From Escherichia coli (GTDB lineage: Bacteria > Pseudomonadota > Gammaproteobacteria > Enterobacterales > Enterobacteriaceae), in assembly GCF_030013205.1 (NCBI RefSeq), contig NZ_CP122648.1: 64,000 nt of DNA; one strand, 5' to 3'. Positions 52,683 through 55,154 of the stretch are shown in pieces; the first letter of the stretch is position 1; each line of letters begins with the position of its first letter. The translations under genes were made by a program, and so were the position numbers. The notes under the pieces are model-generated. The model did no database searches. It was not told the origin of the DNA and worked only from the letters and a program-made list of their open reading frames with translations.

Positions 52683-55154
52683 TTAAGAATCAGCCTGACT
52701 CGGGATCAGTTTTTGCCAGATAACTGAAACGTATTTTGCCTGGTAACGGGCGTCATCAAGTGCATTATGGCGCTCACCTTCGAATGGAATAGCCGTTCTG
52801 GCATCGAAGTCTATGGCTTTCCCCAGCTCAACGATTGTGCGTACATCGCGATCGTTGTAGTAACGCCACGGGCAGGGGATCCCCTGCCGTTCGTATGAAC
52901 GGCGCAAAATCGTGTTGTCGAAGTTGGCTCCATTTCCCCAAACCTGAACAAAAAATTCACCGGAGTTTTCGTCGATAAATTCTCGCAATTGTAACAGTGC
53001 ATCATCTAACGGGATTTCATCGGTCATAATGGCAGATTGCGCTTCGCGTGATTGCTTAAGCCACCATTTAATGGTGTCCCGATCAATGACTCCGCCAGCA
53101 GTTTCCAGATCGATAGTCTTACTAAATTCCGGTCCCATATCTCCGGTTTGCGGATCGAAAAATATTGCACCTATTGAGATGATCGGGGCATCAGGATTTT
53201 TTCCCATGGTTTCAAGGTCGATCATTAGATGGTCACACGTCCTGCTGGTGGATGTGATTTCGTGATGACCGTTCACCTTAATTGGGTGATCTGCCGTCTC
53301 GCCAGTTTCATTATCGCTATTGTGATGCTGATTGCCGCCAGTGTTCTCCTTGTGTGGATGTTCAGCGCCTTCCATTTCCTCCGGATCATCTTCCTGAACT
53401 TCAACCTGATACTCTTCATCGAATGTTTCTTGGTATGTTGCGTCGCCCATCACCGCGCCACAATCAGGGCAGTTGCCGCCGCCGGTCTGACCGCAGGCGG
53501 TGCAGACTTTTTCCACTTCCTGTTGCGCTACTGGTTCAGGCTGTTTCGTTTCTGGCTCGTTTTGTAACGCATTTGGACTGTTTTGTTCCGCTTTTTGGTA
53601 GTTCCGTTCCGATTCATGCTGGTTCTGGTTCACAGAATCGCGGGTCTGGAGCCCCTTAACCCATTTCGGATCATTCGGGTCACTAATCCCTTCAACAAAT
53701 TCACCACGTGATGCAGCAAGCAACTTATCGGCGTCAGGCTGGCTGATATTGGCTGCCTGCATAATTTTGTTTACTTCGTCAGCGGTAACTTTTATCGGCT
53801 CTGGTTGTTCTGAATCTTCAGCGGTATCTACATTTTGCGGTAAGCCCGTGTATGTGCCATTTTTTCGGGCAAAATATTCTTCTTTTGTGATTTCAGTGGC
53901 GCCAGCAGCCAGTGCCTTATCCAGACCAGAGAGTTTGTTTGCGCGACCGTATTTTTCTCCGTCCTTATCTGCGAAGAGGAAATAGAACGGCCCCTCACGC
54001 TCTACAGATGGTTCAGCTTCCGGCGCGGTTTCATTTTTTGGGATATCAGATACCTCAGTTTCCACTGCATCAGTTTGTGTTTCTGATGACTGGAGAACAT
54101 CAACAGTGCCCAGGTCTGTTTCTTCATTCTCAAACACGCCCTTTGTCGTCAGGTATTCGCAGATATATTTGTTCAGTGCTACGGGATCTTTGTGAATGTC
54201 GATCGGACGCTCACGGACAAGGCCAAAAATAGTTTGGCGGTCGTAGCGAAGGGCATCAGGCTGTTTGCGCATTGATGCCGAGATACGCTTCCAGTCTTCG
54301 CGGTCGTTGTCGATAACTTCTTTTTTTGCCCAGCGATGGATGCTGCCGTCAATGTTTCCGGCATCCACATCACTAGGCCAGAGAGCGTAGGCCAGTTCGT
54401 CATCCAGTGTTTTCCATGTCTGCTTGTATTCGCGATGAATGGCAGCAATGACCGGGCTGATTTTTCCTGTTGAATTTTCAGTGTACTGTTGATTGGCTCT
54501 GGCGCGGGCGAGATCAACAACAGACGTGTATTTTCCGGTTTCCTTGCGTTCACCTTCGCGACGTTTTTTCCAGATGCGCATCTCTGCCTGAATTTCGGGC
54601 CATTTAGCACCAGGAATACATTTATGCTTAACCCACCCAATGGCGTGCAACTTAAGCTCCGGATACATGGCGTTAACTTCTGGCATTTTCATCAACGCTT
54701 CAACGATATGTCCGTCGAATGTTGCCATGTCTTCCTGCAACAATTCCTGTGCGCTAATAACCATATCAACGGTGATGTTTTCACATGTGTCGAACTTAAC
54801 CATGACAGCGTTCTGTACTTCAGGGGCCAGCTTGTCAAAAGTGACGTTCATCGGATCGGATTCAGTCTCAACCGGGACAAAAGAAGCAGACTCCTCATCC
54901 CAGCGGTTTTCCTGCATATATTCAGCATCCCATGAATCGAGGGCAGGGCGGGGTATGCCAGGTTTATCCTCGCAGACAATAAATTTATAAGCGCAGTCCT
55001 GAGCAGCCGGATAATGTTCCAGGAATTGCCAGTGAAATTTTGCTCGAGCACGGCGTTCGTCGCCAGCTTCAATGGCTGTGGCTACAGCCACAGCGCCTTC
55101 TTCCCTTGTTGCCAGTTCGTCAGGAATAGCGGCGCAAATAAAGACTTTACTCAT
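52683..55154 (-). CDS. prophage exonuclease, C-terminal DEDDh (DnaQ-like) 3'-5' exonuclease domain
   Basis: ORF track start at 55190 is TTG; ATG at 55152-55154 has GAGG upstream and gives about 823 aa; motifs [28 protein letters not shown]; central [16 protein letters not shown]. Confidence 0.75.
   Translation of the reverse strand: [823 protein letters not shown]

What the first reader, a model, noticed from the sequence alone, without database searches (positions are those of the whole stretch)
52683..55154. Large prophage exonuclease combines a DEDDh 3'-5' domain with a long acidic region and a Cys4 motif, and has no adjacent annealase
The C-terminal about 180 residues carry the three DnaQ-type motifs ([28 protein letters not shown]). 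Upstream is roughly 600 residues of acidic, low-complexity sequence with [16 protein letters not shown]. The gene sits where lambdoid phages keep exo/recE, but the following gene is xis, so there is no RecT/Bet-like partner. A DEDDh domain would give 3'-5' polarity, opposite to RecE/lambda Exo, which is unusual for this slot.
Basis: partly seen in the sequence, partly recalled or inferred. Interest (0 to 1): 0.55.

Follow-up and report, generated by a model that had tools for sequence, protein, structure and literature searches.

The report
Qin prophage YdfE exonuclease, intact
This is the intact form of the E. coli Qin-prophage gene ydfE, a common and already annotated but biochemically untested phage exonuclease that carries a DnaQ/DexA-type 3'-5' nuclease on a RecE-like front part and has no annealing partner next to it.

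Summary
Window 52683-55154 (-) is one clean 823-aa ORF. Its last ~180 residues are a complete DEDDh domain (Pfam PF16473, E 5e-67). It has a Cys4 motif and is followed directly by xis and int, with no annealase.

The gene is not rare. It is the intact allele of the K-12 Qin-prophage pseudogene ydfE and the last gene of the DicA-repressed dicBF operon. RefSeq calls it 'exonuclease'. The DEDDh part occurs in 4068 of 5426 complete E. coli genomes.

The upstream 640 residues are acidic but not low-complexity. They contain two confidently predicted folded domains (aa 1-206 and 240-345), then a disordered linker shared with RecE.

The same front 622 residues also occur fused to the RecE PD-(D/E)XK nuclease, and those alleles are followed by recT. 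DNA homology between the two alleles stops at window 53288. The nuclease was therefore swapped as a cassette, and recT is present only with the PD-(D/E)XK version.

Stand-alone relatives of the DEDDh domain sit in Erf-SSB-exo-Abc2 recombination modules of P22-like phages. A 2025 paper already reports DnaQ-type nucleases in lambdoid phages.

All segments show purifying selection (dN/dS 0.14-0.29). The most likely function is a 3'-5' DNA-end exonuclease made on prophage induction. Substrate and role are untested.

The parts
52683..55154 (-). Complete exonuclease gene, 823 aa. It is the intact allele of the K-12 pseudogene ydfE. RefSeq WP_000048342.1, 'exonuclease'.
   Evidence: ORF list. Identical CDS annotated in strain cq9. 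First 256 aa are 100% identical to K-12 YdfE. PHROG 2082 matches end to end.
54537..55154 (-). Folded alpha/beta plus helical domain 1 (aa 1-206), the YdfE_N part.
54120..54437 (-). Folded helical domain 2 (aa 240-345). Homologous to RecE residues ~278-340.
   Evidence: AF2 pLDDT above 94. BLASTP against RecE. NCBIfam RecE model positions 271-600 align to aa 246-623.
53235..54116 (-). Acidic, predicted-disordered linker (aa 347-640) that carries the two conserved motifs listed below.
   Evidence: pLDDT below 50 except short helices at 458-482. Composition. dN/dS 0.23-0.29.
53661..53729 (-). Conserved short motif [23 protein letters not shown] (aa 476-498). Candidate partner-binding peptide shared with RecE.
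   Evidence: The core AAxRGE[FY]V[ED]GISDPxDPKW is present in 24 of 50 diverse family members whatever their nuclease type. Identical block in K-12 RecE.
53457..53504 (-). Cys4 motif [16 protein letters not shown] (aa 551-566). Putative zinc knuckle, shared with RecE.
   Evidence: Sequence. Present in 10 of 50 family members, including K-12 RecE. AF2 confidence is low, so the fold is not established.
53286..53290 (.). Mosaic junction (aa ~622/623). Homology with the PD-(D/E)XK+recT alleles and with K-12 recE ends here.
   Evidence: blastn against L007, L008 and K-12 Rac all end at window 53288. The protein alignment diverges after ...ETGETAD.
52716..53231 (-). DEDDh 3'-5' exonuclease domain (aa 642-813). 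Catalytic residues D646, E648, D746, H796 and D801.
   Evidence: Pfam PF16473, E 5.2e-67. Sequence match to T4 DexA 8KEL, E 1.5e-6. Alignment A2. Foldseek top hits are DexA, RNase T, 3'hExo, ERI and Orn. dN/dS 0.18 over aa 623-823.
52359..52610 (-). Excisionase gene immediately downstream.
   Evidence: ORF. 'excisionase family protein' in the identical cq9 locus.
51044..52339 (-). Tyrosine integrase at the prophage end next to rspB.
   Evidence: ORF. RefSeq annotation.
55247..55623 (-). ydfD and dicB, the genes immediately upstream in the same operon.
   Evidence: ORFs. RefSeq names in cq9.
55798..55849 (-). DicF sRNA of the same operon.
   Evidence: Rfam RF00039, 71.1 bits, E 2.5e-14.
56891..57298 (-). 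dicA, the CI-like repressor that controls the operon.
   Evidence: ORF. RefSeq name. DicA represses dicBF, which includes ydfE (PMC10448788).

Best explanation
The gene is the intact ydfE of a Qin-type lambdoid prophage. It is the last gene of the DicA-repressed early-left (dicBF) operon.

It is a chimera. The front ~620 residues are the RecE-family scaffold: two folded domains, then an acidic disordered linker carrying the [10 protein letters not shown] motif and a Cys4 knuckle. The usual RecE PD-(D/E)XK 5'-3' nuclease, together with the recT gene that follows it, is replaced by a DexA/Rv2179c-like DEDDh nuclease. The swap occurred by recombination at the end of the conserved linker.

The likely mechanism is as follows. 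When DicA repression is lifted, the protein is made. The scaffold takes the nuclease to the same, still unknown, partner or DNA site that RecE uses. The DEDDh domain then removes nucleotides from 3' ends of DNA using two metal ions.

It therefore acts as an annealase-independent DNA-end processing enzyme in phage recombination and DNA metabolism. It would rely on host functions or on annealases of co-resident prophages.

Shown here: gene identity, domain architecture, the cassette swap, intact catalytic residues, purifying selection, and absence of an adjacent annealase.

Inferred: 3'-5' polarity, DNA as the substrate, the recombination-related role, and the targeting role of the scaffold.
For: - Identity: the first 256 aa are 100% identical to K-12 YdfE, and the gene order matches Qin: dicA | ydfA-B-C, dicF, dicB, ydfD, exo, xis, int | rspB.
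- DEDDh domain: Pfam E 5e-67, all five catalytic residues invariant with T4 DexA, and Foldseek top hits DexA and RNase T.
- Scaffold: aa 262-627 align to RecE 278-592. The NCBIfam RecE model matches only its positions 271-600. AFDB50 hits for aa 1-350 are all 'exonuclease / exodeoxyribonuclease VIII / RecE family' proteins.
- Cassette swap: 900-aa proteins share 97% identity over the front 640 aa but carry PF12684, and are followed by an overlapping recT. DNA homology ends at window 53288.
- No annealase next to any DEDDh chimera examined. These cover at least four integration sites and include diverged representatives with RecE-type N-termini.
- Link of the domain to recombination: stand-alone homologues (56-59% identity over the domain) lie in Erf-like - SSB - exo - Abc2 modules of epsilon34 and Bas106. 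The same conclusion appears in PMC12315714.
- Maintained by selection: dN/dS 0.14-0.29 in every segment against a diverged allele. Present in 4068 of 5426 complete genomes.
- Regulation: dicBF, including ydfE, is repressed by DicA (PMC10448788).
Against: - No biochemistry exists for this protein.
- The Pfam family is named after an exoribonuclease, so the substrate could be RNA.
- DnaQ-type 3'-5' exonucleases usually inhibit rather than promote homologous recombination, as noted in PMC12315714.
- With no annealase, a recombination role has no obvious partner.
- Many scaffold relatives have no nuclease domain at all, so the scaffold may have its own function unrelated to end processing.
- The AF2 model of the DEDDh domain has low confidence because the alignment there is shallow.
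- In K-12, no transcript reaching ydfE was detected, although that allele is IS2-disrupted.
Confidence: 0.55

Rival explanations
1. It is an anti-phage defence or superinfection-exclusion nuclease of the 'HREX' type. Like the E. coli DexA homologue EcD, the DEDDh domain would selectively digest incoming hydroxymethylcytosine-modified DNA of T-even phages.
For: NAR 2025 (PMC12153337) reports that an E. coli DexA homologue, EcD, degrades T4 DNA but not unmodified DNA and protects against T4. Our domain belongs to the same DexA-related family (8KEL E 1.5e-6; Foldseek top hit). The neighbouring gene dicB is on a cryptic prophage kept in most E. coli. The very high prevalence would fit a host benefit.
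Against: - EcD is a stand-alone protein that starts MIDTET (primer sequence). It is not this 823-aa chimera.
- The two DexA residues the paper ties to 5hmC recognition are not kept here: W152 aligns with Tyr and D169 with Ala.
- The gene sits in an operon repressed in the lysogen, unlike typical prophage defence genes.
- PADLOC returns only a generic Cas-associated DEDDh match, E 1.8e-5.
- The identical scaffold fused to RecE nuclease plus recT points to recombination.
Confidence: 0.12
2. It is a nucleotide-scavenging or oligonucleotide-finishing nuclease. After induction it would degrade host DNA fragments or short oligonucleotides to mononucleotides, as T4 DexA and oligoribonuclease-type enzymes do.
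For: The closest solved relatives are T4 DexA, which is annotated as involved in host DNA degradation, and then RNase T, Orn and REXO2. The absence of an annealase is then no problem. Expression in the early lytic operon fits.
Against: A 640-residue RecE scaffold under purifying selection is hard to explain for a simple scavenger. Temperate lambdoid phages are not known to degrade host DNA (general knowledge). Stand-alone homologues sit inside recombination modules.
Confidence: 0.13
3. It is an RNA 3'-5' exonuclease acting on phage or host transcripts, for example trimming products of the heavily processed dicBF transcript or other RNAs.
For: The Pfam family is founded on the M. tuberculosis exoribonuclease Rv2179c. 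RefSeq often names relatives '3'-5' exoribonuclease'. The operon RNA is processed by RNases to give DicF.
Against: The nearest characterised relative by sequence is the DNA exonuclease DexA. The scaffold is that of a DNA recombination nuclease, and the alternative cassette is a DNA nuclease plus recT. DicF maturation is already explained by RNase E and RNase III.
Confidence: 0.08
4. It is a decaying remnant with no current function, carried along in cryptic prophages.
For: The window's prophage is defective: replication genes are missing and it has IS and toxin-antitoxin insertions. K-12 carries the gene only as an IS2-disrupted pseudogene. Many database entries are fragments.
Against: The ORF is intact with all catalytic residues. 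dN/dS is 0.14-0.29 in all segments. 3488 genomes hold at least 80% of the gene. An identical copy is in a deposited phage genome.
Confidence: 0.07

Closest known systems
RecE (exonuclease VIII) of prophage Rac, E. coli K-12
   Same: Same position in the early-left operon. Homologous scaffold: aa 262-627 align with RecE 278-592. The hinge aa 475-622 is far more similar than the 39% average of that alignment and includes the [10 protein letters not shown] motif and the Cys4 motif. Alleles exist with this exact N-terminus fused to the RecE nuclease domain.
   Different: The C-terminal PD-(D/E)XK 5'-3' nuclease (PF12684) is absent and replaced by a DEDDh domain. There is no recT downstream. The N-terminal ~260 residues are of the YdfE_N type and only distantly related to those of RecE. 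The NCBIfam RecE model scores 281.6 bits against a cutoff of 1269.
ydfE pseudogene of cryptic prophage Qin, E. coli K-12
   Same: Same locus and same operon. The first 256 residues are 100% identical.
   Different: The K-12 copy is truncated by IS2 and lacks everything after aa 256, so the K-12 literature lists YdfE as uncharacterised. The window has the complete gene.
DnaQ-type nucleases of lambdoid Rec modules (e.g. Salmonella phage epsilon34 gp34, Escherichia phage Bas106 gp31)
   Same: 56-59% identical to aa ~640-816 with the same catalytic motifs. Encoded in early-left operons of temperate phages. Described as DnaQ-like 3'-5' nucleases in PMC12315714.
   Different: They are stand-alone 182-aa proteins packed between SSB and Abc2, next to an Erf-like annealase. 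Here the domain is fused to a RecE scaffold and has no annealase, SSB or anti-RecBCD neighbour.
T4 DexA (exonuclease A; PDB 8KEL/8KEN)
   Same: Best solved-structure relative by sequence (E 1.5e-6) and by fold. All DEDDh residues align.
   Different: Only 26% identical. DexA has extra loops, is a 227-aa stand-alone protein of a virulent phage, and its proposed 5hmC-recognition residues W152 and D169 are Tyr and Ala here.
EcD / 'HREX' anti-T4 exonuclease of E. coli (PMC12153337)
   Same: An E. coli-encoded DexA-family DEDDh exonuclease.
   Different: EcD is a stand-alone protein that starts MIDTET. Its sequence could not be retrieved here, so identity to this domain is unknown. The 5hmC-recognition residues are reported as conserved in EcD and are not conserved here.
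Rv2179c of Mycobacterium tuberculosis (founder of Pfam PF16473)
   Same: Same Pfam family, with a full-length domain match.
   Different: Rv2179c is a small stand-alone bacterial exoribonuclease, neither phage-borne nor fused to a scaffold. This description rests on the Pfam family description and general knowledge.

Membership tests
DEDDh (DnaQ-like) exonucleases, Rv2179c-like/DexA clade (Pfam PF16473) | Significant full-length match to the family HMM | tested here: met
   PF16473, E 5.2e-67, model 2-177 of 177, aa 642-813.
DEDDh (DnaQ-like) exonucleases, Rv2179c-like/DexA clade (Pfam PF16473) | Exo I D-x-E, Exo II D and Exo III H-x4-D catalytic residues | tested here: met
   D646, E648, D746, H796 and D801 are invariant in the alignment with T4 DexA and three phage homologues.
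DEDDh (DnaQ-like) exonucleases, Rv2179c-like/DexA clade (Pfam PF16473) | RNase H-like fold of the DnaQ type | tested here: inconclusive
   The AF2 model of this domain has low pLDDT of 35-60. Foldseek still ranks DexA, RNase T, 3'hExo, ERI and Orn first, but only at E 3e-3 to 1e-1.
DEDDh (DnaQ-like) exonucleases, Rv2179c-like/DexA clade (Pfam PF16473) | Metal-dependent 3'-5' exonuclease activity | not testable with these tools
   Needs an enzyme assay.
RecE / exodeoxyribonuclease VIII (NCBIfam NF007259 equivalog) | Whole-protein score above the curated cutoff | tested here: not met
   281.6 bits against a cutoff of 1269. Only model positions 271-600 of 877 match.
RecE / exodeoxyribonuclease VIII (NCBIfam NF007259 equivalog) | C-terminal PD-(D/E)XK nuclease domain (PF12684/DUF3799) | tested here: not met
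   No PF12684 hit. The C-terminus is unrelated to RecE 600-866.
RecE / exodeoxyribonuclease VIII (NCBIfam NF007259 equivalog) | Homologous N-terminal/central scaffold | tested here: met
   BLASTP E 2e-61 over aa 262-627. AFDB50 hits include RecE-family proteins.
Two-component exonuclease-annealase recombinases (RecET, lambda Red) | Adjacent single-strand annealing protein gene | tested here: not met
   None in the window between dicA and int, nor in more than 10 related loci. recT is present only next to PD-(D/E)XK alleles.
Two-component exonuclease-annealase recombinases (RecET, lambda Red) | 5'-3' resection of duplex ends | not testable with these tools
   The domain family predicts the opposite polarity. 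Needs an assay.
YdfE family (Pfam PF27430 YdfE_N + PF27432 YdfE_C) | Both domains present and sequence identity to K-12 YdfE | tested here: met
   Precomputed Pfam on a relative 88% identical over the N-terminal 640 aa (P0065) and on other family members. 256 of 256 residues identical to K-12 YdfE. These families are absent from the local Pfam copy used.
HREX / EcD-type 5hmC-specific defence exonuclease | Conservation of the DexA W152 and D169 equivalents proposed for 5hmC recognition | tested here: not met
   They align with Tyr and Ala. The stand-alone phage homologues keep the Trp.
HREX / EcD-type 5hmC-specific defence exonuclease | Selective digestion of 5hmC DNA and protection against T4 | not testable with these tools
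   Needs nuclease and plaque assays.

The most novel reading that the evidence does not exclude
The RecE-family scaffold may be a general delivery platform that takes interchangeable nuclease heads of opposite polarity to one cellular target. The partner would be bound through the conserved [10 protein letters not shown] peptide. The DEDDh-headed version, the commonest one in E. coli, would then define an annealase-independent 3'-5' end-processing pathway. Examples could be exposing 5' tails for annealing by host or co-resident prophage proteins, or destroying 3' ends to block host RecA/RecBCD or competing phages. This would be mechanistically distinct from RecET and Red.
Probability: 0.15. 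Interest if true: 0.6.

Novelty: already known. Interest (0 to 1): 0.3.

Why it matters
This is one of the most widespread prophage genes in E. coli. It is present in about three quarters of complete genomes and in up to seven copies in O157:H7-like strains. Its product has never been assayed, partly because the K-12 copy (ydfE) is a truncated pseudogene.

The allelic pair found here is a natural experiment. The same 622-residue scaffold is fused either to the RecE nuclease with recT or to a DexA-like DEDDh nuclease without any annealase. [quoted passage not shown] It could also show whether a 3'-5' nuclease can serve phage recombination.

That has practical interest for recombineering and for understanding how lambdoid phages become mosaic. 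It would not overturn current views: the domain families, the gene and the presence of DnaQ-type nucleases in lambdoid phages are all already on record.

Tried and rejected
1. EcD retrieval failed. I tried to identify EcD (HAK9828821.1) from the HREX paper's primers. The reverse-primer 20-mer is absent from the window. Its single hit in viral contigs was an unrelated sequence. EcD's relation to this domain therefore stays unresolved. The accessions are not in the stored part of the paper's Table S3.

2. A lead from memory was wrong. I recalled that K-12 exoD (DLP12) is a C-terminal fragment of this family. BLASTP shows no similarity.

4. PADLOC found no defence-system match beyond a generic DEDDh model.

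5. I looked for an internal start that would express a stand-alone DEDDh domain from Met644. There is no convincing Shine-Dalgarno sequence at the right spacing.

6. The promoter and terminator scan of 52300-57400 found nothing above shuffle expectation and no own promoter for the gene.

7. The fusion-artefact hypothesis is rejected.

8. The pure low-complexity reading of the N-terminus is rejected.
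Full report
**What is there.** Window 52683-55154 (minus strand) is a single uninterrupted ORF of 823 codons starting at an ATG. An in-frame TTG 36 nt upstream would add 12 residues. RefSeq annotates the same 2472-nt CDS as 'exonuclease' (WP_000048342.1) in an identical locus of strain cq9.

The surrounding gene order, read in the direction of transcription, is:
- dicA
- ydfA, ydfB, ydfC
- DicF sRNA (Rfam 71 bits, window 55798-55849)
- dicB, ydfD
- this gene
- an 83-aa excisionase and an integrase
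- then the chromosomal genes rspB and rspA

This is the left arm of cryptic prophage Qin. In K-12 MG1655 the same position holds the pseudogene ydfE, cut by IS2. The first 256 residues of the window protein are 100% identical to it. The finding is therefore the intact form of ydfE.

**Checking the observation.**
- The C-terminal domain matches Pfam PF16473 (Rv2179c-like 3'-5' exoribonuclease) over the whole model, E 5.2e-67, aa 642-813.
- The only solved structures found by sequence are T4 DexA, 8KEL and 8KEN, E 1.5e-6.
- In an alignment with DexA and three stand-alone phage homologues, the five DEDDh residues are invariant: D646, E648, D746, H796 and D801.
- The Cys4 motif is at aa 551-565.
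- No annealase gene lies between dicA and int.

One description needs correcting. The 640 upstream residues are acidic, with a net charge of about -53, but they are not low-complexity filler. AlphaFold2 predicts two folded domains, aa 1-206 and 240-345, at pLDDT above 90. Only aa ~347-640 are predicted disordered.

Against a diverged allele from an ompW-site prophage, dN/dS by segment is:
- 0.14 for aa 1-260
- 0.23 for aa 261-470
- 0.29 for aa 471-622
- 0.18 for aa 623-823

The whole protein is therefore under purifying selection.

**How common it is.** Megablast of the gene finds matches in 4799 of 5426 complete E. coli genomes, and 3488 of them cover at least 80% of it. The DEDDh-specific 606 nt alone are in 4068 genomes, with up to 7 copies per genome, for example in O157:H7. 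An identical protein is in the deposited genome of Escherichia phage PhiR42_1. PHROG 2082 ('exonuclease', 823 positions) matches end to end. Current Pfam has families named YdfE_N (PF27430) and YdfE_C (PF27432) for the front part. The object is thus catalogued. The J Bacteriol 2023 paper on dicBF regulation lists ydfE as part of the DicA-repressed operon and names DicF, DicB and YdfD as its only characterised gene products (PMC10448788).

**Anatomy and origin.**
- BLASTP against K-12 RecE aligns aa 262-627 with RecE 278-592. Identity is 39% overall and much higher across aa 475-622, a stretch that includes [23 protein letters not shown] and the Cys4 motif.
- The NCBIfam RecE equivalog matches only its positions 271-600 and scores 281.6 bits against a cutoff of 1269.
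- A search with aa 1-640 found 900-aa E. coli proteins that are 97% identical over that region but end in PF12684, the RecE PD-(D/E)XK nuclease.
- Their loci, at the Rac attachment site, read dicB, ydfD, [YdfE_N-YdfE_C-PD(D/E)XK], recT (overlapping the exonuclease stop), lar, xis, int.
- At the DNA level, homology between the window and these loci runs from ydfA through the gene and stops at window 53288, which is codon 622/623. Homology to K-12 recE stops at the same base.
- The phage 813R8 gene has a third kind of N-terminus but shares the hinge and the DEDDh head.

The protein is thus a three-part mosaic: a variable N-terminal module, a conserved hinge, and an exchangeable nuclease head. 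The head is exchanged together with recT.

Among 50 diverse family members, Pfam finds DUF3799 in 14, Rv2179c-like in 7 and no nuclease domain in about 29. The last group matches the 'RecE-2' proteins without a nuclease domain noted in PMC12315714. One example (P0134) is followed by a Sipho_Gp157 gene.

The short motif AAxRGE[FY]V[ED]GISDPxDPKW is kept in 24 of these 50 whatever the head. The Cys4 motif is kept in 10.

**Context of the DEDDh head elsewhere.** Stand-alone 182-aa homologues, 56-59% identical over the domain, start exactly where the fused domain starts, at MNHLMVDLETMG. In the P22-like phages epsilon34 and Bas106 they lie in the module Erf-like annealase, SSB, (HNH), DEDDh exonuclease, Abc2 anti-RecBCD. 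Genome Res 2025 (PMC12315714) reached the same conclusion. [quoted passage not shown] It adds that sporadic DnaQ-type genes lie near int outside recognisable Rec modules, and it comments that such nucleases usually inhibit recombination.

In every locus with a scaffold-DEDDh chimera that I examined, the gene is the last one before (xis and) int and no annealase is present. This holds at four or more attachment sites and with several int/xis types:
- rspB site:
- potC side:
- ompW site:
- tRNA-Ser/mtfA site:
- diverged representatives with RecE-type N-termini:

**Mechanism.** The best-supported reading is an induction-expressed DNA-end processing enzyme. DicA (CI-like) represses the operon. On derepression the protein is made. 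The RecE-type scaffold presumably brings it to whatever RecE's N-terminal region binds; that region is 'of unknown function' but enhances linear-linear recombination (PMC11611040). The DEDDh head then trims 3' ends.

What is shown is the identity, architecture, cassette swap, intact active site, selection, and lack of an annealase. Polarity, DNA as substrate and the recombination-related role are inferences from family membership and gene context.

Rivals:
- An HREX-like anti-T-even defence nuclease (PMC12153337). This is weakened because EcD is a stand-alone protein, the proposed 5hmC-recognition residues are not conserved here, the operon is repressed in lysogens, and PADLOC gives nothing specific.
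- A DexA/Orn-like scavenging nuclease.
- An exoribonuclease.
- A functionless remnant, argued against.

**Verdict.** The gene is ordinary in the sense of being ubiquitous and annotated, and DnaQ-type nucleases in lambdoid phages have been reported. This analysis adds three things:
- the identification as intact ydfE;
- the clean allelic swap of nuclease head plus recT at a defined junction;
- the consistent absence of an annealase next to DEDDh-headed alleles.

Function remains untested. Interest is modest at 0.3.

Noticed in passing
window 53661-53729 (aa 476-498 of the exonuclease): The short motif AAxRGE[FY]V[ED]GISDPxDPKW sits in a predicted-disordered region. It is conserved in 24 of 50 diverse RecE/YdfE-family proteins whatever their nuclease head, which looks like a binding peptide for an unknown partner.
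   Followed up: partly
L016 5001-7370 and L017 5001-7370 (protein P0134); alignment A1: More than half of the diverse scaffold relatives (about 29 of 50) have YdfE_N/YdfE_C or Exonuc_VIII N-terminal parts but no recognisable nuclease domain. P0134 (789 aa) is followed by a Sipho_Gp157 gene. These match the 'RecE-2' proteins mentioned in PMC12315714.
   Followed up: partly
window 57596-58272: The Qin prophage in the window is more degraded than in strain cq9 or phage PhiR42_1. A 107-aa ORF occupies the position of the YdaT-family gene and runs straight into the ORF that occupies the position of the SAM-dependent methyltransferase gene in cq9. The replication-gene region present in the other two is missing.
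   Followed up: no
window 59694-59865 (+) and 59939-61252 (+): A sok antitoxin RNA (Rfam 104 bits) lies next to an ISNCY-family transposase gene inside the prophage remnant.
   Followed up: no
window 62579-63105 (+): relB-relE type II toxin-antitoxin pair, as in K-12 Qin.
   Followed up: no
window 55798-55849 (-): The DicF sRNA gene is intact (52 of 52 model positions), upstream of dicB in the same operon as the exonuclease.
   Followed up: yes
L010 3998-4570 (Escherichia phage 1720a-02): A stand-alone DEDDh homologue (60% identical) lies after an EaA gene near the genome end, outside any recombination module. The domain therefore also travels as an isolated gene.
   Followed up: no
PMC12153337, supplementary primer table: The EcD reverse primer, read in the frame used for the DexA primer, contains in-frame TGA codons before the added TAA. 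The exact end of the cloned EcD ORF is therefore unclear from the paper.
   Followed up: no
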